Shown here: positions 1,323 through 35,662 of the stretch, piece by piece
Position numbering within the stretch: the stretch's first letter is position 1
How the letters are laid out: each line of letters starts with the position of its first letter
NCBI RefSeq assembly: GCF_963921235.1
Contig: NC_086097.1
Coordinates: 78,928,001-78,992,000, forward strand
Origin: Mobula hypostoma
Taxonomy: Eukaryota
Direction: 5' to 3'
DNA length: 64,000 nt
Notes under the pieces: generated by a model
Database searches by the model: none
Told to the model about the DNA's origin: nothing
The model's input: the letters and a program-made list of their open reading frames with translations, nothing else
Made by a program: the position numbers and the translations under genes

Positions 1323-2222
1323 CAGTCGGCCCTCCTTATCCGCGAGGGATTGGTTCCGGGACCCCTCGCGGATACCAAAAAAGCGCCAGTGCTCAAGTCC
1401 CTTATTCAACCTGTCTCAATGTGGTAGACCTTAGGACCCAGTGGAACCCTGAACCTTATTTAACCTGTCTCAGTGCGGTGGACATTAGGACCTGGCGGCG
1501 GATCTCTGAATCCGCAGTTTCTGTTCGCGAAAATAATCACGACCGTGATTGAAAATAAAGTGAAAATAATAAAGCGATCGGAAAGAGGTGAAACGCCATC
1601 AGTCATTGGGAAAGCTTTCGGCTACAGTCGGTCAACGATCGGAACAATTTTAAAGGATAAAGTGAGAAAGGCCCTGCCCTGATGAAAGCTACAATTATTA
1701 CTAAGCAACGCAGTGGTTTAATTATTGAGTTTTTGATCCTCCACATCAACCCGGCACGGATGGAGAGCGCGCTCGTGAGCGATCTGTCACTGGATCGAAC
1801 TCGGGAGCTTATGTTCCCGAGCCCAGTGCTGAAACATACATTTCTTAAGTGTTTTGAATGCATAGAAAGGTAAAATATATACTAAGATAAACGTTTGACT
1901 AATTGATGTTAAATAATGTCGGATGTACCTGTTCCGACTTACTGGGTAAGAGAACATCCGGTTTTTTTCCATCCCGGTCGAGAATAACCTACGCACATCC
2001 TCCCGTATACTTTAAATCATCTCTAGATTACTTATAATACCTAATACAATGTAAATGCTATGTAAAATAGTTGTTATACTATATTGTTTAGGGAATAATG
2101 ACAAGAAAAAAAAGTCTGTACATGCTCGAACAACAAGTACTGGAAGAGCACTTCTAGGTTTTCTGGGTTTGAGGTTGGTTGAATTCGCACATGTGGAACT
2201 TGCGGATAAGGAGGGCCGACTG
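1323..2222 (+). mobile_element. Non-autonomous Tigger/pogo DNA transposon (internally deleted)
   Basis: Perfect 21 bp TIRs cagtcggccctccttatccgc, TA at both flanks, CENP-B-like HTH fragment (IENKVKIIKRSERGETPSVIGKAFGYSRSTIGTILK). Confidence 0.9.
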
Positions 2223-2249
2223 TATAAGTTATTATATCATAGGGGCTTA

Positions 2250-2822
2250 ATTGTCAAAGCCTGTGGGGGGGAGGAAGGTAATGGGGATAAGTTCCCACGA
2301 CCTATTAAACGCTCCCTATGGTTGTGTCTCAAATAGCATCTGACAACCAAGTCCAGCTCCTAGCCTTCATGCTTGGCTTATCTACTAAACCCAGCAGAAC
2401 TGTTTCTACTGACAGGAGAAAGGGAAGGTGGGTTACTGGCACCTTAAAACCAGTCGCATCAGGCAGAGCAGGCTCGCCGACCATGGTTGGCAGCTCACCT
2501 AGGAGAAGGAAAACTCTGATCTCAAACCTCCGCTGCCTTGTGACTATATCCACACATGAAGAAGGCTTTAGGAGTAAAGTCTGGGGTAAAATCTAGAGCC
2601 CTAGGCCCTGAGGCAGTCCAACACTGAGTGGCAACTCCTGTGATGCTGCTGGTTCCAAACTGTATCGGTTTCTGCTGTTCCTTTGGGTACGTCATTTGCA
2701 TGGCGAGGAGGAGCCTGCAACATGGGCAACAGCTTGCTCTCTGTATTGTACTGCCGTGGCTTGTGGATCACATAGAGAGCTAGGATGCAATATCCTTGGT
2801 CGATCCTGACCAATTGAGGGCC
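2250..2822 (+). mobile_element. Non-coding interspersed retroelement, possibly RTE-related non-autonomous
   Basis: GC-richer block flanked by a near-identical direct repeat tca(t/c)aggggctta (2237-2249 / 2823-2835); the family call is inference. Confidence 0.5.
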
Positions 2823-3780
2823 TCACAGGGGCTTATCATCATAAGCACTTTGTTCTTATCTCTGCCCTCTCCCTCTCCACATATTGTGAAGGCTCAAGAT
2901 AATAATGAGCCCCATTCATGCATAACCTCCTTTCAACCCTGATGATTCTATATGACCAGATACCTCTGCAATCAAGACATGAGGTGGTTCCCAAAAAAAT
3001 ACCAGACAGTATTTGTTGTCATTTTGGACGCTGTCCCATATCCTAACTTGGCCTTCTTATTTCACAATGCAAAGTCAAAATCAAACACACATAAATCACT
3101 GACTTGTTTGTATCTGCAGCATAAATCCACATGTCAACCAAAAGTTTATAGAAAATAATGGCTCGAACCATTTGAAGTTATCCAAAGGGTTTCCTTGCTC
3201 ATAGACATATCAGAACATTATCTTATATCACTTTAAAGAAGGATAGCTATTCTTGCCTCTAATATGACTGCAAAAAAAAATTCCCATGCAGCATTTGAAA
3301 TTATGGCTACAAAAAAAGATAATATTTGTAGGTCATTTGTTTCATTGTTATTTGTACTTTGCTGTGTGCAAGATCACTCCAAAAAAACACTTAATTTCTC
3401 CAAAACACATTACACTGGTTGCATATGTGAAATATGTATATTTTAGGTTATAAAATACTTTGTGATATTCATATGTTATGAAGGAATATGCATAGATTTT
3501 GAGAACTATGAAGTTATATTTATGAAAGGGATAATTCAGATAGAGAGGGTAATGTACCTAACTGGTTTATTTACCAGTAAGTTGTTCACTTCAATTGGAA
3601 GCTGTCTTCCAGGGCATGAAGATGTTAATAGATTGGTTGGACTTCAAGTAAAGTCTTACTAAAAAGCAGAAAATAAACAGAAACACTGTATATTGTGCCA
3701 ACATTAAATAAATGCATGATTATGAATTAAAATAATAAAGAAATTAAAACCAAAAGTACTGACAAACAGGCTTTTTGCAG

Positions 3781-11195: not shown

Positions 11196-12682
11196 GGCCA
11201 GCTGGCGGCACAATGGCATCAGCGCTGGACTCCGGACCGAAGGCTCTCGAGTTCGAATCCAAGTCGGGCCACCCCCCGAGCACGCTTTCCATCCGTGCCG
11301 GGTTGAGCATCGAGCTAGCCACGCAGCCTCGTTAAAAAAAAGGGTCAAGTCAGGAACGTTCATATCGTGAACTGGCTAATCCGAAAGGAGACCAATCCTG
11401 ACACCACGCACCGGACAAGAATGGCTGATTTAAACACGAGGAATTCTGCAGATGCTGGAAATTCAAGCAACACACATCAAAGTTGCTGGTGAACGCAGCA
11501 GGCCAGGCAGCATCTCTAGGAAGAGGTACAGTCGACGTTTCGGGCCAAGACCCCCTCCACCATCAACTCTGCTCTCAATTGCATCTCCCCCATTTCACGC
11601 ACATCTGCTCTCACTCCATCCTTCCATCACCCCACTAGGAATAGGGTTCCCCTGGTCCTCACCTACCACCCCACCAGCCTCCGGGTCCAAAATATTATTC
11701 TCCGTAACTTCCGCCACCTCCAACAGGATCCCACCACTAAGCATATCTTTCCCTCCCGCCCCCCGCCGCTTTCTGCAGGGATCGCTCCCTACGCGACTCC
11801 CTTGTCCATTCTTCCCCCCCATCCCTCCCCACTGATCTCCCTCCTGGCACTTATCTTTGTAAGTGGAACAAGTGCTACACATGCCCTTACACTTCCTCCC
11901 TTACCACCATTCAGGGCCCCAGACAGTCCTTCCAGGTGAGGCGACACTTCACCTGTGAGTCGGCTGGGGTGATATACTGCGTCCGGTGCTCCCGATGTGG
12001 CCTTCTATATATTGGTGAGACCCGACCCAGATTGGGAGATCATTTTGCTGAACACCTACGCTCTGTCCGCCAGAGAAAGTGGGATCTCCCAGTGGCCACA
12101 CATTTCAATTTCACATCCCATTCCCATTCTGATATGTCTACCCACGGCTTCCTCTACTGTCAAGATGAAGCCACACTCAGGTTAGAGGAACAACACCTTA
12201 TATTCCGTCTGGGTAGCCTCCAACCTGATGGCATGAACATTGACTTCTCTAACTTCCGCTAATTCCCCACCTCCCCCACGTACCCCATCCGTTATTTATT
12301 TATATACACACATTCTTTCTCTCTCTCTCCTTTTTCTCCCTCTGTCCCTCTGACTATACCCCTTGCCCATCCTCTGGGTTCCCCCCCCCCCTTTCCTTCT
12401 CCCTAGGCCTCCTGTCCCATGATCCTCTCATATCCCTTTTGCCAATCACCTGTCCATCTCTTGGCTCCATCCCTCCCCCTCCTGTCTTCTCCTATCATTT
12501 CGGATCTCCCCCTCCCCCTCCCACTTTCAAATTTCTTACTAGCTCTTCTTTCAGTTAGTCCTGATGGAGGGTCTTGGCCCGAAATGTCGACTGTACCTCT
12601 TCCTAGAGATGCTGCCTGGCCTGCTGCGTTCACCAGCAACTTTGAAGAATGGCTGACTGTCTGGTGTGACATGCTAAAAAAA
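11196..12682 (+). mobile_element. tRNA-headed SINE (about 270 bp) split by a PLE insertion
   Basis: A-box-like tggcggcacaatgg (11203-11216), B-box gagttcgaatcc (11249-11260), A-tail, TSD acccgctgagtt (11184-11195 / 12683-12694). Confidence 0.8.
11429..12644 (+). mobile_element. Penelope-like element, GIY-YIG endonuclease portion with inverted terminal arm
   Basis: ORF 11936..12262 VIYCVRCSRCGLLYIGET (GIY-YIG); inverted arm 11432-11552; TSD aagaatggctga (11417-11428 / 12645-12656). Confidence 0.9.
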
Positions 12683-19677: not shown

Positions 19678-22600
19678 CTTTCCACTGTCTATCTTTTCTC
19701 ACAGTCTCTGTACACATTGCATCTACCTTTACAATAACTATTCTATCCTCTGACCTAACACGCCTGTTTCCATCCCCCGTCGGTCTAGTTTAAGCCCTCC
19801 CCAACAGCTCTAGCAAACCTGCCCTCAAGGATACTGGTCAAAGATATCCCAGTGATCCACAGATCTGAAACCTTGCCCTCTGTACCAATTCGGCAGCCAC
19901 ACAAATTAGATTCAGTTTCATTTATTCATCACATGTGCAGCAAAGCATACAGTGAAATGCATTGTTTGCATTAACAACAAACACAGCCTAAAGATGTGCT
20001 GGAAGCAGCAAGTGTCACGACACATTTTGGCACCAACATGGCATGTCCACCATGTTCCCAGACCACACAGGCAAGAGCAATAGAACAGCAACTAAAGAAA
20101 AGGAGCAAAACGAGTCCCTTACCGCCCGAACACCCATGCGTGCACCCACACAAATAGTCCTCTAACCCCAGGACAGGCTGTCTTCAGCCTCCAGTCTCTG
20201 GTGGCCTCACAGACATTGGGCCTTTGACTTCCCCAGTGGTCTTACAGACCCAGAATTTCAACCATCGGGCCTTGACTCCTAATCAATCATTGGGCTTAGA
20301 TCTTCGACATCGACCCAGTTCTCATTGATGGCAATGAATGATGAGCCTAGAAAGGGATTCCAAACACCTGGACTTGAACTCTGGCTTTGCCAATGATGGG
20401 ACCCTGAACACTAGGCCTGTAACTCTGGTCTCGCCGACTGGCGTACCTGGGAGGTCACCTCCTGCCCATATGGAACTCCAATCTTGGAACCCGCTGACAA
20501 CTCACTGACTTGGGTGGAGGTACCACCAGCACTCATCTGCGCTGGAATGTTGTCCCAATATCCAACAACGGATGTCCTTCATCACATGTCTACTTCACTG
20601 GCCTTTGAGCCCAGAGCGAAGGCTTAGCCTCCGGCCTAACTGCTAATTCCCCCAGTTTTACAACTCCTCCCTTGGAGGGTCAGACACCCTGAGCCAATAG
20701 GCTAGTCCTGGACTTATTTCCTGGCATAACTTACATATTACTATTTAATTATTTATGGTTTTATTACTATTTATTATTTATGGTGCAACTGTAACGAAAA
20801 CCAATTTCCCTCGGGATCAATAAAGTATGACTATGACTATAACTATCCTTGTCCCTAAACTCTAACCTAACCCCTAACTCCCCCTTCCTATTCTTATCCT
20901 CACTAGCACGTGGCATAAGCAGCAATCCAGAAATTACTACCCAGGAGGTCCTACTTTTCAGCTTCCTCACCAGCTCCCTGTATCTGCTCATCGGGACCTC
21001 ATCCCTTTTCTCATTTCTGTCATTAGAGTATCACGACATCTGGCTGCTTATCATCCCCCTTCATGCTCTGCACACAATCTGAGACATCCCTGATCCTGGC
21101 AGCTACAAGGCAACATACCAGCTGGTGAACCTTTCACGTCCATAGAGTCTCCTGTCTCTTCCCCGAATTATTGAATCACTTATTACCACCGCTCTGGTTT
21201 TTCCGCTTCCGTTGTTCAGAGTAAGTTTATTATCAAAGTACATACGTATCAACATATACAACCCTGAGATTCATTGTCTTGTGAGCATATGCAATAAATC
21301 CAGTAAGCATAATAGAATGAATAAAGACCGTCCCTAAAGGGCAGACAACCAGTGTGGAAAAGACAACAAACACATGCAAATACACAAAGAAAAGAAAGAA
21401 AAAGGCAATAATTAATAAAAACATGAAATGAAGAGTCCTTGAATCAGTGCCAGACACTCGATTATTGCAGCTCTCCCTGGTAGGTTGTCCTTATCAATAG
21501 TATCCAAAGTGGTAAACTTATTGTTGTGTATGTGGCCTGTTTACACAACTATGTTATTAATAAAAATGCTGGAGACGGGAACTAAGTTTCATGGTTCTTT
21601 ACTGGCAGAATCTGAACTCGACACACACGTACGGATCAATATGCGCCTAATAGCCCATGCAATGACGTGTCACTAAAACATAAAGTAGTCCCTTATTATA
21701 ATATAGGCTATACGGTACACTCCTCCCCTTTTATTTTAATAGTGTATCAACCGTTTTTTTTACTGGGGCACTATGCTAAACAAATATGTTTACCCTTAAC
21801 ATACAAACGCCTACCATTTGTTTACAAATTATAACAAAGTAGCTTAATAATATCAAATTATAACAAGCCTTTTTTTTTCTTTTTTTTTACTTTTGGTCTA
21901 AGACCCATTTAGAACTCAAGTCTCTGGGGAGGTCTTCTCTGTTTCTCTGGGTAACGTCTGTCCTGAAACGTTTGCTTCAGGGAATGTGTCTCCACAGGTA
22001 CATCAGCTGGGTCATCAGCCCTGATGATAGGCTTATTTGTAGATGAGGCTGATGTGGTCACATCAGGAGTGTTTGCTTCTATGTCAGGGAGTCCGGGCAA
22101 GGTGTTATTGTGTTTTTCACCTGAGCATCCAGGATTTGGTCCACATGACGTCTCCATACATTCTCTCCCACCTCCACTGTGTACATCAGTGGCCTGTCTA
22201 TGGCCGAAATTGTACCCGGCTGCCACTTTTCAGTCTGGTAATCACATGCAAGAACTGACTGTCCCACACTGAAGCTCCGTGTTGACTTAGCATTCAAGTG
22301 TTTGAACTGTCTGTTCTCCACATCACGCCGTACATCTGGTTTGAGAAGATCCATGCGAGACCTCAGGTTCCTGTTCAGAAACATCATCGGTGGAGTCTGA
22401 TTAGTGGTTGCATGTACTGCATTACAATAGGCAAGGAGGAAGTTGTCTACCTTGTGTTGCAGTGGTTGATTTTAGCTGTCCATTGCCTTGATGGCTTTCT
22501 TGAATGTCTGCACAAATCCTTCTGCCAAGCCATTTGTGGATGGATGGTAAGGGGCCGATGTAAAGTGCTTGATTTCATTGTTCTTCATAAAACTTTAGAA

Positions 22601-25600
22601 TTCTTCAGAGACAAATTGTCGTCCATTGTCTGTGCAGATTTGTTCTGGTATGCCATTCCCAGCGAAAATGGCCCTCAGAACTGTAATGGTCTTTTCTGAT
22701 GTGTTTGTCTTCATTTTGATGACCTCTGCCGAATTGGAATGTGCATTGACGGCGATTAAAGAGAGAGTCCATGAATAGTCCAGCAAAGTCAATGTGCACT
22801 TGTCGCCATGGTGATGAGGGCCACTCCCATGGATGGAGAGGGGCTTGTGGTGGTGTGTTCTGGATAGTTTGACATCCAGAGCAGTTCTTGGTCAAGTCCT
22901 CAATCTGTTTATCGATTCCTGGCCAACACACATAGGCACAGGCAAGACCTTTCATCTTCAGGGTACCCAGGAGCCCCTCGTGCAGTTCCTCCAGCACTCT
23001 GGTGCGTAGCTTGGGAGGGACCACAACTCGTGAGCCATACATTAATGTTCCCCGACACACTGACAACTGCTCCTTCCTCGCTGAGAAGGCTGGAAACAGT
23101 GTGTTACCCCACGCTGGCCATCCCTTTACCGTGATGTCATACACTTCTGACAACATAGGGTCGTTGCGTGTTTCCCTTTCAATGAGGCTGTTTGTTACTG
23201 GTAATTGTTCAACTATTGTCGTGTGAACAACCTCTGCTGAATCCATTTGTGTAGTTATCTCTGAAGTCAGCAGTGGTAAACGTGACAAACCATCTGCATT
23301 ACCATGTTGCTTGGTCCCCTTGTCCCAATGTCATACATGTGACCTCCTAAGAACAGAGACCATCGCTGCAGCCTTTGTGCTCTCATCACTACAACGCCTT
23401 TTCTTGGGTTGAAGATTGACATGAGAGGCTGATGGTCAGTCAACAGGGCAAACTTTTGACCATACAGGTAGTGACTGAATTTCTTGACTCCCCACACGAG
23501 GCTTAGGGCCTCTCTGTCAATCTGTGCGTAGTTGCATTCAGCTGAAGTTAGCGTTCTTGAGGCAAAGGCTACTGGTCTTTCTGAGCCATCTGGAAACGTG
23601 CGATAACACAGCTTTTACCCCATGGGGTGAGGCATCATAAGCTAGTCGGATAGGTAAGGAGGGGTCAAAGTGTGTGAGCACCCCTTCTGAAGTTATGAGT
23701 CTTTTAGTTTCTTGAAACGCTTTCTCACAGCTCTCAGCCCACTTCCATTGTGTCCCTGTCTGTAACAGTGCATTTAGTGGGTGTAGGACTGTGGATAGGT
23801 TAGGCAAGAACTTGTGGTAGTAGTTCACTAGTCCAAGGTATGCTCTCAGCTGAGACACATTTTCGGGTGGTGATGCCTTAAGCACCACTTCTGTCTTGTC
23901 TTGAGACATGTGTAAGCCATCCTTGTTGATCATATGCCCACAGTATGAATTTCCTTTTTGAAAAACTCACATTTCTGTCGATTAGCTCTGAGCCCATATT
24001 CTCGTAACCTGGTGAGCACTTGTTCAAGGTTAGAAAGATGTTTGTTGTCATCTTTGCCAGTAACGATGATGTCATCCAGGTAACACTGAGTCCCTGGAAT
24101 CCCCTGCAGGATCTGGTCCATTGCCCTTTGCCAGACTGCAGGAGCTGATGCTATCCCAAACACCAACCTGTTGTACTGGTAAAGTCCTTTGTGTGTACTT
24201 ATTGTCAAGTATTTCTTGGATGCTTCATCAATTTCCATTTAGAGATAAGCCTGGGCCAAATCGATTTTTGTGAAATGTTCCCCTCCTGAAAGGGAAGCAA
24301 AGATAGAGGATACTGTACTGTGCGGGGAACTGGGTTAACAGTCACTTTGAAGTCTCCACATATGTGCTCCTTGCTTGGTTTTCTTGGTTTTGTGCTGGAG
24401 GTTTTCTTCATCACTGGAACAATAAGCATGGCCCATTCACTCCAATCCACCTTTGACAGGACCCCAGTCTGCTCCAGATTTTTCGGCTCTGCCTCTACTG
24501 TAGAATGGATTGCATATGGCACTGGTTTGGCTTTGTAAACTTTTGGACATGCATTTTCCTCAATCTGAGTCTTTGCCTTCATGCCCTGAAGTGTTCCTAT
24601 TCCTTTCATGAACGCTTCCTCAGAGTCAGCAAGTATTTGTGACAGTCTCTCAGATGTAGCCTTGCTGCCCTCCTTTGCTGACACATCTAGTGGCTTGATG
24701 GTGTGCCAATCCAACTGGATTTTCCTGAGCCATTCATGTCCCAGCAACAGTGGTCCTCCATTTTTCAGTACATAGAGGTTCAGCTGCTGGGTTTTGTCTC
24801 TGGGGGTCACTGTCACTTTAATTTTGGCTTTGGGACGCACTCTCTGTCCTGTGTAAGTCTTTAGCAGTAGTTTAGTTCGTTTCGGAGGTATATGAGAAAA
24901 CAGTCATTTGTAGTCATGTACAGAGATCACTGTTAAAGCTGAGCCTGTGTCCAACTCCATTTTCAGTCTCACGCCTGCCACTTGTGGAGTGATCCATATT
25001 ACTCTTTGATCATCTGTCTCTTTCACGCTGTGAAGTTGCAGACAAAACAATTCACTTTTGTCTGAGTCATTGTCATCAGAACTGCTTTCTTTCATTTTGT
25101 GCACATTGTTGTATTTTCTTTTCTGGGGTTTCTTGTTTCTTTGTAATTTGTCCTTTTTCTGTTGTTTACTAGCTTTGCATACTCTGCCAATGTGGCCCTG
25201 TTTGCCACAGTTTCTGCATTCTTTGTCTTTAAACCAATAGTCCTCAGGGTCATGTGACATGTTCCCACCACGGTAACATTTCTTTCCTTCATTCCTGTTC
25301 AGTGATATTTTATTCATAGCATATTCCAGAGATTTTTCTTGTATCTCTGAAGCACCTCGTGCTGCTGTTTCCAATGATATTGCAATGTTCAGTGCCTTCT
25401 CTAATGTAAGGTCTTTTTCACACAGGAGCTTATTCTGTATGGTTTCACAGTGTATGCCACACACTAACCTGTCCCTCACTGCGTCCGATAGACCAGCTCC
25501 AAATTCACAATGTCCTGATAATTTGCGCAATTCAGCACAGTATTCAAAAATGTTTCCATTTTTGCTCCGATTCCATTTGTGAAATTTAAATCTTTCAGCA

Positions 25601-25887
25601 ATGACCAGTGGTTTAGGCTTTAAATGCTGTTGGAGAGTGTCTACTATTTGCTTGAATGTTTTGTCAGCTGGCTTTTCAGGGGTTAACAAGCTCCATTGCA
25701 GGCCATATGTTTTTGCTCCCATAATACTGAGTAAGACGCTGGCTTCCTTTTCATCATTAACACCACTAGCATCACAATATAACTCCACTCTCTCAATGTA
25801 AGTTACCCAGTTTTCAATGCCACTATCAAATGCTGTAATAGTTCCAATCATTGCCATCTTTGTTATGTTATTTTAGTACCATTTTTC

Positions 25888-26533
25888 TGCGTCCGGTGCT
25901 CCCAATGCGGTCTTCTATATACTGGCAAGACCCGACGCAGGCTGGGAGACAGTTTCGCTGAACACCTATGCTCTGTCCGCCAGAGAAAGCAGGATCTCCC
26001 AGTGGCCACACCTTTTAATTCCACATCTAATTCCCATTCTGATATGTCTGTCCACGGCCTCCTCTACTGTAAAGATGAAGCCACACTCAGGTTGGAGGAA
26101 CAACACCTTATATTCCGTCTGGGTAGCCTCCAACCTGATGGCATGAACATTGACTTCTCTAACTTCCGCTAATGCCCCACCTCCCCTTCATACGTCATCC
26201 ATTATTTATTTATCTTTTATTATTATATATTTTTTTCTTTCTCCCTAGGCCTCCCGTCCGTCCCATGATCCTCTCATATCCCTTTTGCCAATCAACTTTC
26301 CAGCTCTTGGCTTCATCCCTCCCCCTCCTGTCTTCTCCTATCATTTTGGATCTCCCTTCCCCCTCCCACTTTCAAATCTCTTACTATCTCTTCTTTCAGT
26401 TAGTCCTGACGAAGGGTCTCGGCCGGAAACGTCAACTGTACCTCTTCATATAGATGCTGCCTGGCCTGCTGCGTTCACCAGCAATTTTTATGTGTGTTGC
26501 TTGAAATTCCAGCATCCGCAGATTTCCTCACGT
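25888..26533 (+). mobile_element. 5'-truncated Penelope-like element inserted in the Gypsy 5' leader
   Basis: GIY-YIG C-terminal coding sequence, 3' region, hammerhead motif and full tail; TSD tacc(a/g)tttttc. Confidence 0.88.
26403..26436 (+). ncRNA. Minimal hammerhead ribozyme motif in PLE pseudo-LTR
   Basis: gtc-CTGACGA-agggtctcggccg-GAAAC-GTC-aac: intact CUGANGA, GAAA and NUH core; activity not tested. Confidence 0.7.
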
Positions 26534-27104
26534 TACCGTTTTTCCTTGTTTTCTTTTTAGCTAGCTCCTTGCAGTCACTGCACGTTCCACTTGACTCGCA
26601 CGTCCTTTTTGCTAGTGCAACGAGCGCACTCTGTCTAGATGCATGTGTCGCTCCTTTTCATCTCCCTTCTCTCTATTCTCCTCCAAGTGTCATTATTAAT
26701 TAAAACAGGCGTTCCGATAAGATGTCGGTTCATAATTCTTGTTGCCAATTTGTTGTGTATGTGGCCTGTTGACACAACTATGTTATTAATAAAAACGCTG
26801 GAGATGGGAACTAAGTTTCATGGTTCTTTACTGGTAGAGTCTGAACTTGACACACATGTACAGATCAATACGCGCCTAACAGCACATGCAACGACGTGTT
26901 ACTAAAACATAAAGTAGTCCCTTACTATAATGTAGGCTATACGGTACACTTATTATTAAGGAAAATGGCCACGGGGGTTACTCTGCACTACCTATTCCTT
27001 TTCCCTTTCCTGACAGTCACCCAACTACCTGCCTCTTGCAACTTCAGAGTGACAGACTCCCTGTACTGTAGCCTCTATCTATTTTGGGTATAAAAACCCT
27101 CCAG

Positions 27105-27692: not shown

Positions 27693-27813
27693 ATAAAAAC
27701 CCTCCAGATTTTAATTACTGATGTATAGTGATTCCAGTGTTGCTTCACTTTGTCAGAATGTTTAATTTGGATTTATGATTGGTGACTGTGTTGATTTTTT
27801 TGTATTCCTTTAG

Positions 27814-28023
27814 GACATTTCTTATTGACCTTCCTGCTTCTCGATCTCCTTAAAAACTCATCACCTGCTCGTATTATTAACGTTTCATCCTTGGCTCATT
27901 TCCTTGGCCGAATCAATTTTAAGGATTTGCAGAGTGAAAACAGTTATGATGGGGGTCTGGCCTACTGCCAGAGTAAACTAGCCAACATACTGTTCACCCG
28001 GGAACTGGCCAAGCATCTGAAAG
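27814..28023 (+). CDS. RDH12: RDH12-like coding exon with catalytic Ser and YxxxK (NVSS...YCQSKLAN)
   Basis: cctttag acceptor, gtatgc donor, 210 bp; overlaps ORF 27825..28058. Confidence 0.93.
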
Positions 28024-30017
28024 GTATGCTGCAATTTTTAACTCCAGCATGCCACTAAAATAGTGGCAGAAAAATGTCTTTCTATTGTTTGATTGGTTCA
28101 TTTTTTTTGTAATTTATTTTTTATTGAGGTTCATCATCAAACAAACATTTCCATAAGATGTATTTCAGGTATTGTACATAAATATCATATAGTCATATAA
28201 GCCACAAATCACATAATATTTATCTGAGGTATACACCTATAGAAAAGAGAGGAAAGAAAGAACAAGCAAAAGGAGAAAACTATGTACAAGTAGGGAGTGA
28301 TTTTTTTTTTACAACATATTCATTGATTTGTGAGAATAAAATCAGGTCTTTGAGGTGTTATGCAGTTGAACCATTTTTCCCAGTATGAATCAAATTGTTC
28401 CAACTTATGATTAACAGATGCTGTTATCTTCTTCATTTTGTAAATGTCCATTGTAATTTCCATCCATGCATTTAAAGTTGGGCTGTCCTGTGATAACCAT
28501 TTCCTGGTAAGGGTCTTTTTACCAGCCATCAGCAGTATATTCATTAAATATTTATCTCTTTTCAACCATTCTTGAGGTATATACCCAAAATATATGGTCT
28601 TACTTTCTAAGGGTATTCCACATTTAAAGATGTCTTGTAAGGCATTGTGTATCCCACTCCAATAGTCTTTGATAACGGAGCATTCCCAGAAAATATGATA
28701 ACTGTTTGCATTTTGATGTCCACAATTTCTCCAGCAAACAGGGAGATTACTATCATAATGGGATTTCTGAGAGGGTGTAATAAAATATCGTATCAAGTTT
28801 TTCCATCTGAACTCCCCCCATTTCTGTGAACTGGTACACTTCCATTGATACCTCCATATTATTGTCCATTCTTCCTCAGATATAATTATCCCTCCTTCCT
28901 TCTCCCATTTTGTTTTAATGTATGAAGTCGAATGTGTTTTAAGATTTGACAAACCCTTATACACACTTGAAATGATTCTACTACCATTATCTGAATTATA
29001 TGCCTTTCTAAATAGCTCTATCAAACATGTACTTGCCTTGGTTACATTTTTAACCGTCCTATATGTCGCATCTGTAAATACCGATAAAAGTCTTGTTTTT
29101 CTAATAAGTGTTTCCCTTTAAGCATTTCTAAATGGAACAGTGTTCCTTCTTTCATTATATTGCAAAGAACTGTTATTCCTTTCACTGTCCAGCCCTTAAA
29201 TCTAGCATCCAGTTTATCTGGCATAAAATCCGAGTCATATGCACACCATTTAAGAATTGCAATGTCTCTCTCTAGTTTATATTCTTTTATAATTTTCCAT
29301 ATTTTAAGAGTCCATTTCACCCATAGGTTATCAATAGTATTTATGTAACTTTGTAGGTTGTTATCAGCCAAGATTGCCTGTATGGGGATGGGAAGTATCC
29401 CCTCCTCAATGTTTTTCCATTGAGCGTCATATGATGGGTTGCACCAGCATATCACGGCTCTCAACTGTACTGCAAAATAATAATCTCTCAGAGAAGGTAG
29501 GCCCCATCCCCCCTTTTCCTTGGCTAATTGCAAAGTTTTGAGATGAACTCTAGGCCTTTTACCTTGCCATATATATCTTGATAACATTTTGTTCCATTCA
29601 TTGAATTGATTCTGATTAACCTCTGTTGGTAGGGTCTGAAAGAGATATAATAGTCTGAGCAGTATATTCATTTTAATAGATTCAATCCTTGAACTGAGAC
29701 CAAGAAAAGGAATTCGGTTCCATCTTGTTATATCTTCCTTAATTCTTTTATATGTAGGCTGATAATTGCATTCTGATAATTTTGCGAAATCTTTTGGCAT
29801 AATGATGCCCAAATATTTGAAAGACTCTGTTTGCCATGCCCGGGGATATCTGCTTTCAATTTATCTTAGTAGGCTATAGTTATATGGAAGTAATTGGGTT
29901 TTATCTATGTTGATCTTGTATCCTGATAATTGACCATAGTGTTCAAAGGTTTGCATCAATTTGGCTAAATATTATATTGGTTGCCCTAGATAGATCAAAA
30001 TGTCATCTGCGTAACAG

Positions 30018-32292
30018 AAACAACAGGAATTCTGCAGATGCTGGAAATTCAAGCAACACACATCAAAGTTGCTGGTGAACGCAGCAGGCCAGGCAGCATC
30101 TCTAGGAAGAGGTGCAGTCAACGTTTCAGGCCGAGACCCTTTGTCAGGACTAACTGAAGGAAGAGTGAGTAAGAGATTTGAAAGTTGGAGGGGGAGGGGG
30201 AGATCCAAAATGATAGGAGAAGACAGGAGGGGGAGGGATGGAGCCAAGAGCTGGACAGGTGATTGGCAAAAGGGATACGAGAAGATCAGGGGACAGGAGG
30301 TCTGGGAAGAAGACAAGGGGCGGGGGGAACCCAGAGGATGGGCAAGGAGTATATTCAGAGGGACAGAGGGAGAAAAAGGAGAGTGAGAGAAAGAATGTGT
30401 GTATAAAAATAAGTAACAGATGGGGTACGAGGGGGAGGTGGGGCATTAGCGGAAGTTAGAGAAGTCGATGTTCATGCCATCAGGTTGGAGGCTACCCAGA
30501 CGGAATATAAGGTGTTGTTCCTCCAACCTGAGTGTGGCTTCATCTTTACAGTAGAGAAGGCCGTGGATAGACATGTCAGAATGGGAATGGGATGTGGAGT
30601 TAAAATGTGTAGCCACTGGGAGATCCTGCTTTCTCTGGCGGACAGAGCATAGGTGTTCAGCAAAGCGGTCTCCCAGTCTGCGTCGGGTCTCGCCAATATA
30701 TAAAAGGCCACATCGGGAGCACCGGACGCAGTATATCACCCCAGCCGACTCACAGGTGAAGTGTCGCCTCACCTGGAAGGACTGTTTGGGGCCCTGAATG
30801 GTGGTAAGGGAGGAAGTGTAAGGGCATGTGTAGCACTTGTTCCGCTTACACGGATAAGTGCCAGGAGGGAGATCAGTGGGGGGACGAATGGACAAGGGAG
30901 TCGTGTAGGGAGCGATCCCTGCGGAAAGCAGAGAGAGAGGGGGAGGGAAAGATGTGCTTAGTGGTGGGATCCCGTTGGAGGTGGCGGAAGTTACGGAGAA
31001 TAATATGTTGGACCCAGAGGCTGGTGGGGTGGTAGGTGAGGACCAGGGGAACCCTATTCCTACTGGGGTGGCGGGAGGATGGAGTGAGAGCAGATGTACG
31101 TGAAATGGGGGAGATGTTTAAGAGCAGAGTTGATAGTGGAGGAAGGGAAGCCCCTTTCTTTAAAAAAGGAAAACATCTCCTTTTGGCTTCCCTTCCTTCA
31201 CTATCAACTCTGCTTTTAAACACATCTCCCCCATTTCACGTACATCTGCTCTCACTCCATCCTCCCGCCACCCCAGTAGGAATAGGGTTCCCCTGGTCGT
31301 CACCTACCACCCCACCAGCCTCCGGGTCCAACATATTATTCTCCGTAACTTCCGCCACCTCCAACGGGATCCCACCACTAAGCACATCTTTCCCTCCCCC
31401 TCTCTCTCTGCTTTCCGCAGGGATCGCTCCCTACACGACTCCCTTGTCCATTCGTCCCCCCACTGATCTCCCTCCTGGCACTTATCCGTGTAAGCGGAAC
31501 AAGTGCTACACATGCCCTTACACTTCCTCCCTTACCACCATTCAGGGCCCCAAACAGTCCTTCCAGGTGAGGCGACACTTCACCTGTGAGTCGGCTGGGG
31601 TGATATACTGCGTCCGGTGCTCCCGATGTGGCCTTTTATATATTGGCGAGACCCGACGCAGACTGGGAGACCGCTTTGCTGAACACCTACGCTCTGTCCG
31701 CCAGAGAAAGCAGGATCTCCCAGTGGCCACACATTTTAACCCCACATCCCATTCCCATTCTGACATGTCTATCCACGGCCTTCTCTACTGTAAAGATGAA
31801 GCCACACTCAGGCTGGAGGAACAACACCTTATATTCCGTCTGGGTAGCCTCCAACCTGATGGCATGAACATCGACTTCTCTAACTTCCGCTAATGCCCCA
31901 CCTCCTCCTCGTACCCCATCTGTTACTTATTTTTATACACACATTCTTTCTCTCACTCTCCTTTTTCTCCCTCTGTCCCTCTAAATATACTCCTTGCCCA
32001 GCCTCTGGGTTCCCCCCGCCCCTTGTCTTCTTCCCAGACCTCCTGTCCCCTGATCTTCTCGTATCCCTTTTGCCAATCACCTGTCCAGCTCTTGGCTCCA
32101 TCCCTCCCCCGCCCCCCCCCCCGTCTTCTCCTATCATTTTGGATCTCCCCCTCCCCCTCCAACTTTCAAATCTCTTACTCACTCTTCCTTCAGTTAGTCC
32201 TGACGAAGGGTTTCGGCCTGAAACGTCAACTGCACCTCTTCCTAGAGATGCTGCCTGGCCTGTTGTGTTCACCAGCAACTTTGATGTGTGTT
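30018..32292. mobile_element. 2.3 kb palindromic Penelope-like insertion (two inverted GIY-YIG arms)
   Basis: GIY-YIG ORFs 30446..30895(-) and up to 31893(+) are mirror images; centre about 31153-31184; 13 bp TSD atctgcgtaacag (30005-30017 / 32293-32305). Confidence 0.93.
32197..32230 (+). ncRNA. Minimal hammerhead ribozyme motif in PLE pseudo-LTR
   Basis: gtc-CTGACGA-agggtttcggcct-GAAAC-GTC-aac; the mirror copy at 30117-30150(-) has CTGACAA. Confidence 0.7.
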
Positions 32293-33286
32293 ATCTGCGT
32301 AACAGGCCAATTTATGCTCTGTCCCTTTAATAGTAATTCCCCTGATATCTTCATTTTGTCTGATGTATTAAGCTAATGGTTCCAGATATAATGCGAAGAG
32401 TAGCGGTGACCATGCACAACCCTGTCTCATGCCCCTTTCTAGGCTAAAACTATTTGATAAATATCCATTGATTTTAATCCTAGCAGTAGGATTGTCATAT
32501 CGTGCCTGTATAATTTTAATAATTGTGTCATGGAAACCAAATCTATGTAAAACTCTCTAAATTCCAATTAACCGAATCAAATGCCTTTTCAGCGTCCATG
32601 CTTCGATTTTATTTTTTTGTATATGATCCATAATGTGAAGTGTCCTTCGTATATTGTCTTGTGTTTGGCATTGTTGTATAAAACCTGTCTGATCCTCATG
32701 TATCAGTATGGGTAGAAACTCTTCTAATCGTTTGGCCATGATGGAGGTAAACAATCTATAATCTATATTAAGAATGGATATTGGTCTAAATGACCCCTAT
32801 TCCATTTTACCCTTGCCTTCTTTCAGTACAGCTGAGATTATCGCCTCCTTCCAGCTGGTGGCATTTGTGCCTTTTTTAGAGCCCAGTTCAGTGTGGGGAG
32901 TAAGACAGGAATCAACTCATTTTTTAAATTCTTTGTTCCACTCTGCCGTATACCCATCTGAACCTGGTGACTTGCTTAATTTAAGCCTACTAATTGCAGC
33001 TTTTAGTTCAACTTCAGTTATGTCAGCAGTCATCGTTCTATTTTGTTCTTTGCTTGAAGTGGGTAACTCTAGAGAATTCAGGAAGGTGTCAATTTGGGTT
33101 ATGCTTCCCCCGGAACTTTGGAATATAGAGTTTTGTAAAACACTTCAAAAGCTTCTTGAATTTCACTTAGCTTATTTTTTATCTTTTATGTTCTTGGATC
33201 CCTAATTCTATGAATTGTGTTTTCTGCTATCTTTTTCTCCAGTTTCCACACCAGTATTTTCATAGACTTAGATCCACTTTCATAAT

Positions 33287-33486
33287 CGCAAACGCAAGGA
33301 AATCTGCAGATGCTGCAATTTCAAGCAACACACATAAAACTTGCTGGTGAACGCAACAAATCTCTTACTAGCTCTTCTTTGTCAGTCCTGACGAAGGGTC
33401 TCGGCCCGATACGTCGACTGTACCTCTTCCTAAAGATGCTGCCTGGCCTGCTGCGTTCACCAGCAGGTTTTATGTGTGTTGCTCTG
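33287..33486. mobile_element. Mini hairpin PLE with a mutated hammerhead motif (GAAA to GATA)
   Basis: Inverted arms; gtcctgacgaagggtctcggcccgatacgtcgac at 33385-33418; 10 bp TSD ctttcataat. Confidence 0.88.
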
Positions 33487-35662
33487 CTTTCATAATGTCT
33501 GTTTCAGAAACATTAAATTTTTCCTGATTTCTTGCGTAGCCAAACTATTCATTTCATTCCTAATTTTTAAAATTTCCTCTAATGTATCCTGTGCCAAATT
33601 CAATTTGTGTTTTTTTTTAGTTCCTTCAGCCTATTTTGTAATATCTCTAATGTTTTATTCCTTATTTTTTTCTTAAATGAAGATATCGCTATAATTTTCC
33701 CTCTTAAGACAGCCTTCAGAGTATCCTATAGAATGGGAGGTGAAACCTCTCCATTATCATTGAATTCTAAGTAAAGACTAATTTCTTTTTTAATTTGTTC
33801 CTTAAAATAGAGATCATTGAGTAGACTTGAATTTAGTTTCCAAATAGTATTCTTTCGTTGTAGGTCAAAATCAAAAGATAAATATATAGGTGCATGGTCA
33901 CTTACATCTATTGTCCCAATTCCACAGGTGTTTATTTTGTCTTTTTCTTTTCCAAATGTTATTCTTGTATATACAGAATGGGGGGCAGAATAATGAGTGT
34001 AATCCCTTCTGTCGAGGAAAAGGTCCCTCCATATATCAGTTAAACCAACATTCTCAAAAAGTGTATTAACTTTCTTATGTAAGGATTTTGTTTCATAGGT
34101 TTTTCTATTGGAAGAGTCTAACTTTGGTTGTAATTGTAAGTTTAAGTCTCCCCCACATATCAGGAGACCTGTTTCCATTACCATAATATTAGTAATTTTC
34201 TGAAAGAAACTAATATCACTTTTTGGGGGTGCGTATATATTCAATAAAGTAACTGAACTTCCACCTATATTCCCCCTTACCAGAATATATCTGCCCTCCT
34301 TATCTCCCATTTCGAATACTTTATCAAAATTTAGCTTGATTGAGATAAGAATAGCAACTCCTCTCCTATGTCCTGATTTATATGAGGAGAAAAACAAATT
34401 AGTGAAGCCCATTCTCGTTAGTTTTCCATGCTCATTATCACTTAAGTGAGTTTCCTGTAAATATACTACGTGGGCTTGTTCTTTTTTCATTTTGGATAGA
34501 ATTTTACTGCGTTTGATTGGATTTAACAGCCCATTGACATTAAAAGAAATGAATTTTACTTTGTCCTTAGCCATGTGTATTTATCTATCAATATATCATT
34601 GAAATTAGCAGAATAAAACTTAATCGATCTACTCCCTGCACAAATAAGAAACAAGAAACACAAATAATTAAAAAAAGGCAATGAAGTTGTGATTCCAAGG
34701 CTGAGGCCTCTGGTAGTTGACCCTGGGTTCAGCTAGAGGAAACGTCTAGCCGTGGGGGATAGCCCCTCCTACCTGTGAGTTGGTGGCCCCCATTGCAGTG
34801 CCCATAAAAGTAAGTGAACAAATCTATGTCCATTACACAGAAAAGATCTCCCTGTGTATTCCTCCCATATATATATTCTCATTTAAGTGGAGAAAAAGGA
34901 GTGAACGAATGAATTTTTTAAAAATTGAGTAATATAAAATCCATATTATAATTAGTATTTCTTGAGATAGGTATAGCACCGTCTATTTTTGCTTCCGTTT
35001 AGCTTATCAACACTTTTAAAGCTAGCCAAACCTTGTGGCTCTTCTGGAGGGGATGAGGGCTGTCTTCGGAAAACTCACAGTCTCTTCCTGACATTCTTCT
35101 CTCGCCCTCCTCCCGTCCCCTGCTTTCTCGGTTTTCTGTTTCCCAAGCAGTCGGGATAACTGCTCAGCCAGGCTTTCCCTCGGTTTGACCACGCTAACGG
35201 GCAGCCCTCTGTTCCTCATGTCTGTAGTTGATTGGTTCATTTCAAAGGTACAGCTAATAAAGGAGGGTTTAATTGGCTTTTTCAGTATCAATGTGCGATG
35301 TTACTGTATCTTTGATGAAACAATGTCAATAGGGTAACTGAGCAATACTGATCAATAGAATCCTAAAACTCAAGCTCTGGCACATAGTCTTGGCTTTCTT
35401 GATGGCAGGAAGCTCTGGCCCAGGGTAGAAATAGAGAGATACAATTTCTAATTACAAAATGCTGCTACCGGTAAAAGTACATACAAGACTCACAGACGTT
35501 ACTGATAAGGCACACAGACCCTTGGGGAAAGTCATTAAGCACTCTGCCATTCAGTTAGTTCGAGAGGTGGTTGGCTGAGATGCATGCATTTTGAAGGCTC
35601 CAGGTCTGACTGAGACAGAAGCTTGCAAACTGGAGTGATACTCCGTTTTATTTTCTTAATAG

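What the first reader, a model, noticed from the sequence alone, without database searches (positions are those of the whole stretch)
30005..32305. 2.3 kb palindromic, endonuclease-only Penelope insertion placed on the YADD active site of an L1 reverse transcriptase
Seen: two ~1.1 kb inverted arms, each encoding a GIY-YIG endonuclease with a Cys-rich insert and ending in a hammerhead motif. No RT is present. The 13 bp TSD atctgcgtaacag reads C-Y-A-D on the minus strand, so the L1 motif appears as LACYAD[insert]CYADDILIYL. The arms differ at scattered sites (ctgacga/ctgacaa, NPT/NST, HLR/HLC), which argues against a read fold-back artefact. Established: PLEs encode GIY-YIG plus RT and often form inverted pseudo-LTR structures. 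Inference: one event inactivated the L1 and created a ~1.1 kb dsRNA-forming hairpin in RDH12 pre-mRNA, a possible ADAR substrate or endo-siRNA source. The YADD hit may be chance.
Basis: partly seen in the sequence, partly recalled or inferred. Interest (0 to 1): 0.75.

Follow-up and report, generated by a model that had tools for sequence, protein, structure and literature searches.

The report
Two-armed Penelope insertion on L1 YADD
This mirror-image insertion is real but is the routine landing pattern of a very abundant jumping gene that hit an L1 element which was probably already dead; the same active-site spot was hit in three other L1 copies, most likely because it happens to match a symmetric DNA pattern that the element's cutting enzyme appears to prefer.

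Summary
The structure is confirmed: two 5'-truncated arms (1163 and 1108 bp, 98.3% identical) of a Neptune/Nematis-type Penelope-like element, head to head, with a 13-bp target duplication on the L1 codons C-Y-A-D. It is not an endonuclease-only element; a full RT+EN copy exists in the genome. The layout is routine here: at least 74,399 element ends genome-wide, and 41 of 84 sampled insertions are two-armed. In 40 of those 41, exactly one arm has the 37-nt tail. The L1 was probably dead first: 6 other frameshifting indels, stops, an older Penelope stub, and about 2.7 times the arms' private divergence. No evidence was obtained for a dsRNA role. The YADD hit is not uniform chance. Target sites show a two-fold symmetric preference (A at -8, -7, -3 outside each nick). 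Three other L1 copies, from two further families, are cut in the same register, against 0.05-0.16 expected (post hoc site class). Still, only 4 of about 1,290 such sites are hit, and element ends near all YADD 11-mers are not in excess. The scan has reported two-armed Penelope insertions many times on other DNA; look-ups found no note on the target preference or YADD register.

The parts
30005..30017 (.). Left copy of the 13-bp target-site duplication (L1 codons C-Y-A-D on the minus strand)
   Evidence: single copy in 29 of 29 L1 relatives
30018..30054 (-). 37-nt Penelope tail, on this arm only
   Evidence: one-sided in 40 of 41 two-armed inserts
30018..31180 (-). Left arm: 5'-truncated Penelope-like copy from about residue 769 of the RT+EN frame through EN, 3' UTR, hammerhead and tail
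30115..30152 (-). Minimal hammerhead motif, left arm; two core positions changed by CpG decay (CUGACAA; GUU at the cut site)
   Evidence: read from the alignment; motif definition PMC4209133 passages; no Rfam hit
30446..30899 (-). GIY-YIG endonuclease frame of the left arm with CX4CX2C linker and CxxC between GIY and YIG
31181..31184 (.). Junction filler TTTT between the two inner ends; junction 19-mer occurs once in the genome
31185..32292 (+). Right arm: 5'-truncated copy from about residue 778, ending at the untailed end
31440..31893 (+). GIY-YIG endonuclease frame of the right arm
32195..32232 (+). Minimal hammerhead motif, right arm; core intact, first stem-I pair broken
   Evidence: read
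32293..32305 (.). Right copy of the target-site duplication
28130..30017 (-). Host L1 ORF2, part downstream of YADD (left limit approximate); stops and a 7-bp deletion
32293..34580 (-). Host L1 ORF2, part upstream of YADD including the AP endonuclease; 5 frameshifting indels in 32306-33270
33287..33482 (.). Second, older two-armed Penelope stub in the same L1 (14-bp duplication with 2 mismatches at 33273-33286 and 33483-33496)
28024..35662 (+). Intron (GT...AG, phase 1) of a short-chain dehydrogenase gene that holds the L1 and both Penelope inserts; further exon motifs at about 1129 and 8158

Best explanation
This is a two-armed insertion of an abundant Neptune/Nematis-type Penelope-like retroelement, likely made when a dimeric endonuclease cut both strands 13 bases apart and each cut end primed its own reverse transcript, inside an L1 copy that was probably already dead. 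Shown: the 13-bp duplication, two head-to-head truncated arms from the same source lineage, a tail on one arm only, the same layout in about half of sampled insertions, and a two-fold symmetric base preference outside the duplication. Inferred: 3'-overhang ends prime at two paired start sites 37 nt apart (one tailed, one not); both cDNAs stop early and are joined end to end with a short filler; later mutation made the arms differ. The YADD codons are likely hit more often than an average base because the flanking codons (K three residues before Y; I/V-L after DD) put AA and TT at the preferred distances, not because the element seeks out reverse-transcriptase genes. The hairpin would form in pre-mRNA but is likely a by-product.
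For: Family size: 74,399 exact 3'-end 25-mers, 142,627 tail 14-mers. Of the first 100 ends on contig C1, 84 distinct insertions, 41 two-armed, 40 of 41 with exactly one tail (P 2e-11 against independent choice); duplication 13-15 bp in 30 of 41. Full 1016-aa RT(YIDD)+EN frame in L081. Both window arms share an 11-bp deletion seen in 0 of 46 other arms and agree at 10 of 10 diagnostic sites. Target sites (57 used of 61 harvested, both half-sites): A at -8 in 66, -7 in 76, -3 in 67 of 114, background 30%, P 1e-9 to 1e-15, on both the tailed and untailed side. The register used ranks first of 15 offsets in 3 of 4 L1 YADD sites with the outer columns. L1 age: 5.1-5.3% from the majority of relatives, 2.3-2.4% private, against 0.87% per arm; 6 frameshifting indels in 2.45 kb; stop 10 codons after YADD. 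In vitro precedent: PMC11167929 reports cutting and extension of both strands, two RT start sites bounding the tail, and a predicted dimer.
Against: The matrix explains only part of the in-register excess: it predicts 0.7- to 21-fold for these sites depending on the columns used, against 19- to 57-fold observed; with all columns the window's site is only at the 71st percentile of positions in an L1 relative, and L199's site ranks 5th to 7th of 15. Across 24 long arm pairs, 37 of 259 diagnostic sites are discordant (14%, against 44% between loci), so many inserts seem to draw on two different templates and the number of RNAs per event is unresolved. PMC11167929 saw no difference in start site between strands in vitro. 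Dating by arm divergence would be too young if the arms were homogenised later; no gradient from the centre was seen, but that does not exclude it. The sample is the first 3.6 Mb of one contig.
Confidence: 0.8

Rival explanations
1. The Penelope endonuclease has evolved a preference for the conserved L1 RT active-site codons, in the way homing GIY-YIG nucleases use conserved codons (analogy recalled), and so knocks out competing retroelements.
For: Four hits share one register in three L1 families: window, L104 and L199 have the same 13-bp duplication start, L102 the same nick on one strand. Leaving out the window, 3 hits against 0.053 (exact) or 0.16 (plus or minus 1) expected among 1,287 sites of this class, P 2e-5 to 6e-4. 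L102 and L104 lie in a family with only 13 exact intact sites and share no flanks beyond about 520 bp of L1.
Against: The site class was defined after seeing the hits; against all 14,998 YADD 11-mers the excess is 1.6- to 4.9-fold, P 0.28 to 0.025. Element ends near the 11-mer in any register number 4+3+1 = 8, against about 4.3 expected for each tailed search and a similar, uncounted figure for the untailed one. About 99.7% of such sites are intact. None of the 57 matrix sites was picked for YADD, and the preference is generic A/T phasing. The host of L102 shows no upstream ORF2 match in the stretch fetched. Other positions near L1 copies are hit too: 6 tail motifs in 96 kb against 3.9 expected.
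Confidence: 0.07
2. The insertion killed an active L1 and was kept for that, or for a regulatory double-stranded RNA in the host gene's pre-mRNA.
For: The insert lies in an intron of a + strand dehydrogenase gene; a read-through RNA is predicted to pair 2204 of 2275 bases; arms 98% alike are long enough for ADAR or Dicer (established knowledge).
Against: The L1 carries many other lesions and about 2.7 times the private divergence. About 30,000 two-armed inserts, of which roughly 1,500-3,000 long, are extrapolated, so hairpins are common. The arms decay like neighbours in the family (0.3-4.3% between arms). Both hammerheads are damaged.
Confidence: 0.07
3. One cDNA folded back on itself and was copied to make the second arm (snap-back), rather than two primed cDNAs.
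For: The inner ends are only 28 nt apart and both arms come from one source lineage; inner ends lie within 40 nt in 24 of 41 two-armed inserts, mostly short ones. PMC3846280 suggests self-priming for head-to-head junctions.
Against: It does not explain why the outer ends fall at two fixed, paired positions in 40 of 41 inserts, nor arm pairs with linked discordant alleles such as L081, L142 and L168, nor the symmetric site preference.
Confidence: 0.05
4. Assembly fold-back artefact.
For: No contig in 4 public runs bridged the central junction.
Against: 19 substitutions, 17 of them transitions; exact 13-bp duplication matching the empty site in 29 relatives; one-sided tail as in 40 of 41 family members; in public contigs loose ends pile up at both 30018 and 30052-30054, the two family end points.
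Confidence: 0.01

Closest known systems
EN+ Penelope-like elements, Neptune/Nematis type (PMC8557442, passages read)
   Same: C-terminal GIY-YIG with CxxC between GIY and YIG, CX2-5CxxC linker, strong 5' truncation, inverted 5'-truncated copy, 30-40 nt tail at one end, hammerhead in the terminal repeat
   Different: No microsatellite bias seen in 57 sites; instead a symmetric A/T-phased preference. The passages say the tail is often at only one end; here the pairing is counted (40 of 41).
Adineta vaga Pen2a-type insertions (PMC3846280, passages read)
   Same: Head-to-head inverted ends, tail on one of them, short duplication, insertion into a non-LTR element
   Different: There the inverted part is a ~200-bp pLTR with 8-10 bp duplications; here both arms are 1.1 kb and include EN, with 13 bp.
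Anolis Poseidon PAc in vitro (PMC11167929, parts 1-2 of 4 read)
   Same: Both strands cut and extended; two RT start sites that bound the tail; dimer predicted; hammerhead not needed for insertion
   Different: Different clade (no linker Zn finger in Penelope/Poseidon per PMC8557442); preferred cut was ATT on one substrate; no pairing of start sites between strands reported.
L1 twin priming (recalled, not read)
   Same: Two primers from the target give an inverted segment and a duplication
   Different: In L1 the inverted piece is an upstream, non-overlapping part of the RNA; here both arms are the same 3' end, giving a palindrome.

Membership tests
EN+ Penelope-like element | C-terminal GIY-YIG endonuclease with two cysteines between GIY and YIG | tested here: met
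   Pfam PF01541 in both arms; VIYCVRCSRCGLLYIG
EN+ Penelope-like element | Single frame with RT followed by EN in the parent family | tested here: met
   L081: 1016 aa, YIDD at 662, linker at 883; 94% identical to the arms
EN+ Penelope-like element | 30-40 nt tail at one end; inverted 5'-truncated copy; short duplication | tested here: met
   37-nt tail, 13-bp duplication; 40 of 41 in sample
EN+ Penelope-like element | Minimal hammerhead in the terminal repeat | tested here: inconclusive
   Core motif read by eye; no Rfam hit; single-strand folds do not give the hammerhead, as expected for a motif thought to work as a dimer (PMC4209133 passages); cleavage not testable
Neptune/Nematis clades | CX2-5CxxC motif between RT and EN | tested here: met
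   CKRNKCYTC; definition in PMC8557442
Neptune (as against Nematis) | Placement in an RT tree | not tested
   No reference sequences were in hand; no tree built
Non-autonomous endonuclease-only element family | Fixed inner end or junction shared by many copies | tested here: not met
   Junction 19-mer occurs once; inner ends of long arms are scattered
Site-specific (targeted) retroelement | Most insertions at one target sequence | tested here: not met
   57 sites are diverse; 4 in-register YADD hits among 142,627 tail motifs
L1-clade non-LTR element (host) | AP endonuclease followed by RT with YADD | tested here: met
   PF03372 and PF00078; relatives; clade name from recall of the motifs, no tree

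The most novel reading that the evidence does not exclude
The Penelope integration complex is a two-fold symmetric dimer that reads A/T phasing 3 and 7-8 bases outside a 13-14 base staggered cut and assigns a different RT start site to each cut strand; the conserved K-x-x-x-Y-A-D-D-I/V-L codons of L1 reverse transcriptases form a true hotspot for it, 20-60 times background, which in the strongest form is an evolved bias against competing retroelements.
Probability: 0.2. Interest if true: 0.65.

Novelty: new member of a known kind. Interest (0 to 1): 0.36.

Why it matters
The locus itself is ordinary for this genome. Its value is as a pointer: how Penelope-like elements make inverted structures and one-sided tails is described as unresolved in the papers read (PMC8557442, PMC11167929). 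This genome holds tens of thousands of insertions from which a symmetric target preference, a 13-14 base stagger and a near-strict one-tail rule can be read. These give concrete predictions for the existing in vitro system. The repeated in-register hits on L1 YADD codons give a ready test substrate.

Tried and rejected
Rfam scan: only hairpin-type miRNA models far below gathering score at the palindrome centre, no hammerhead. Single-strand folds of the hammerhead region were no better than shuffles. Sequencing runs: no RNA holder listed; all runs are short contigs. Laying 4 runs on 27700-30250 was swamped by repeat copies and showed neither a filled nor a locus-specific empty site; run X1 matched the unique intron part with no differences. 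Laying 4 runs on 31135-31240 gave no listed piece bridging the junction, which proves nothing. Host gene naming: the atlas gave only weak adh_short leads and the PDB one unnamed SDR; RDH11 versus RDH12 is unresolved. A hotspot of inner ends near 1.1 kb was considered and not supported by the unbiased sample. Centre-biased homogenisation of arms was not seen. The stub-arm count printed (27 of 36) is off by one base; read in register it is 2 of 35. Rows dropped: 1 tandem duplicate end before the count of 84; 4 of 61 target sites with doubtful pairing, and all YADD-selected loci, before the matrix. A control search at a non-catalytic L1 site was not run. Paper searches: (Penelope, twin priming, inverted, head-to-head, hammerhead; 4 of 5 terms) found 0 papers; searches listed none whose title or abstract start reports a symmetric target matrix or L1 active-site hits; most subscription papers, including the original Drosophila virilis endonuclease work, are not in the library, and supplements were not read. 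PMC12910113 passages held nothing relevant.
Full report
Observation. The insert runs from 30018 to 32292 between two exact copies of ATCTGCGTAACAG. On the minus strand these are the codons C-Y-A-D of an L1-type reverse transcriptase. The 29 closest L1 relatives fetched all carry the 13-mer position once and uninterrupted. The left arm (30018-31180, minus strand) and right arm (31185-32292) align over 1098 columns with 19 substitutions and 2 indels; 17 substitutions are transitions and 7 are in CpG context. Both arms hold an open GIY-YIG frame. The left arm has a 37-nt tail that the right lacks and 28 extra bases at its inner end; four T's fill the junction, whose 19-mer is unique in the 3.48-Gb genome.

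What the element is. A copy with a full 1016-aa frame (RT with YIDD, CX4CX2C linker, GIY-YIG) lies in L081, 94% identical to the arms, which start at about residues 769 and 778. [quoted passage not shown] So the arms are truncated copies, not an endonuclease-only element. Both come from one source lineage: they share an 11-bp deletion absent from 46 other arms and agree at 10 of 10 diagnostic sites. The hammerheads are of the minimal type described in PMC4209133 (passages); by eye the left has lost two core bases and the right a stem pair.

How common the layout is. The family has 74,399 exact copies of a 3'-end 25-mer and 142,627 of a tail 14-mer. The first 100 ends on contig C1 resolve into 84 insertions; 41 are two-armed and head to head, 30 of them with 13-15 bp duplications, and 40 of the 41 carry exactly one tail (P 2e-11 against independent choice). 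Two of 84 have both arms over 1 kb and four over 900 bp, which extrapolates to roughly 1,500-3,000 long palindromes with wide intervals. Inverted copies and a one-sided tail are described in PMC3846280 and PMC8557442 (passages). PMC11167929 (parts 1-2 of 4 read) shows both strands cut and extended and two RT start sites bounding the tail. Earlier notes of this scan reached the same general reading on other DNA.

Mechanism. The simplest account is a staggered cut by a dimer, each 3' end priming one cDNA, one from the tailed and one from the untailed start, with the two short cDNAs joined end to end. The geometry is inferred; the end positions and duplication lengths are shown. Whether one or two RNAs are used is open: across 24 long arm pairs, 37 of 259 diagnostic sites differ (14%), fewer than between loci (44%) but more than background (0.2-4%), and often in linked runs.

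Did it kill the L1? Probably not. The L1 differs from the majority of its relatives by 5.1-5.3%, with 2.3-2.4% private changes, against 0.87% per arm since insertion. It has 6 frameshifting indels in the 2.45 kb around the insert, a stop 10 codons after YADD, and a second Penelope stub at 33287-33482 whose duplication has 2 mismatches in 14. Later homogenisation of the arms would make them look young; no gradient pointed to it.

Is the YADD hit chance? In bulk, element ends next to the 11-mer TCATCYGCRTA (14,998 copies) are not in excess: 4, 3 and 1 in three searches, against about 4.3 expected per tailed search. But the L1-type hits share a register. L104 and L199 have 13-bp duplications starting at the same base as the window's, and L102 has the same nick on one strand, in three L1 families in all. 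A CR1-type hit (L196) uses another register; L103 and L197 show no RT context and L198 was not resolved. From 57 target sites not selected for YADD, both half-sites show A at -8 (66 of 114), -7 (76) and -3 (67) outside the duplication, on both the tailed and untailed side. All four YADD sites have TTT at +6 to +8 from the Lys codon and A-rich bases on the other side; the register used ranks first of 15 in three of the four. Among 1,287 intact sites of that class, 0.05-0.16 in-register hits are expected and 3 are seen besides the window (P 2e-5 to 6e-4; class chosen post hoc; against all 11-mers P 0.025-0.28). The matrix predicts 0.7- to 21-fold, the count says 19- to 57-fold; imprecise registration of the duplications probably blunts the matrix, but that is not shown. 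Only about 0.3% of such sites are hit. The best reading is a sequence-driven local hotspot with no function; evolved targeting is not excluded.

Double-stranded RNA. The insert lies in a GT-AG intron (28024-35662) of a + strand short-chain dehydrogenase gene, RDH11/12-like by recall. A read-through RNA is predicted to pair almost wholly. No RNA run was listed and contigs could not test editing, so nothing supports or refutes a role, and thousands of similar hairpins probably exist.

Verdict. A real, well-formed member of a known kind. The symmetric target preference, the one-tail rule and the repeated YADD register are the parts worth following; my paper searches and look-ups did not find the first and last reported, within a library that lacks most subscription papers.

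Noticed in passing
L190 (G000:C1:397-401 kb) and L144 (G000:C1:1.82 Mb): Two insertions with different flanks share the same inverted junction and are 97% identical over 3.6 kb, so a palindromic copy seems to have been re-copied as a unit.
   Followed up: partly
window 11432-12645: Another two-armed insertion of the family: 122-nt tailed inverted arm, 1.1-kb untailed arm, 12-bp duplication.
   Followed up: yes
window 21521-26950: Decayed Gypsy-like LTR element (201-nt direct repeats, 93% alike; RT match) with a Penelope copy at about 25887-26541 inside it.
   Followed up: no
window 31105-31893 (+): A fortuitous 262-codon frame starts at a Met in the antisense left arm, crosses the junction and, through the shared 11-bp deletion, ends in the intact EN frame; intronic, so unlikely to be translated.
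   Followed up: partly
short two-armed stubs on contig C1: Inner ends cluster about 100 nt from the untailed end, at the 5' edge of the hammerhead and about 30 nt upstream of its predicted cut site.
   Followed up: no
L081: Partial tandem plus inverted arm with an uninterrupted 1016-aa RT+EN frame; the tail encodes sequence upstream of that frame's likely start.
   Followed up: partly
L092: Near-perfect 3.8-kb palindrome with arms 0.27% apart, so the family was active recently.
   Followed up: no
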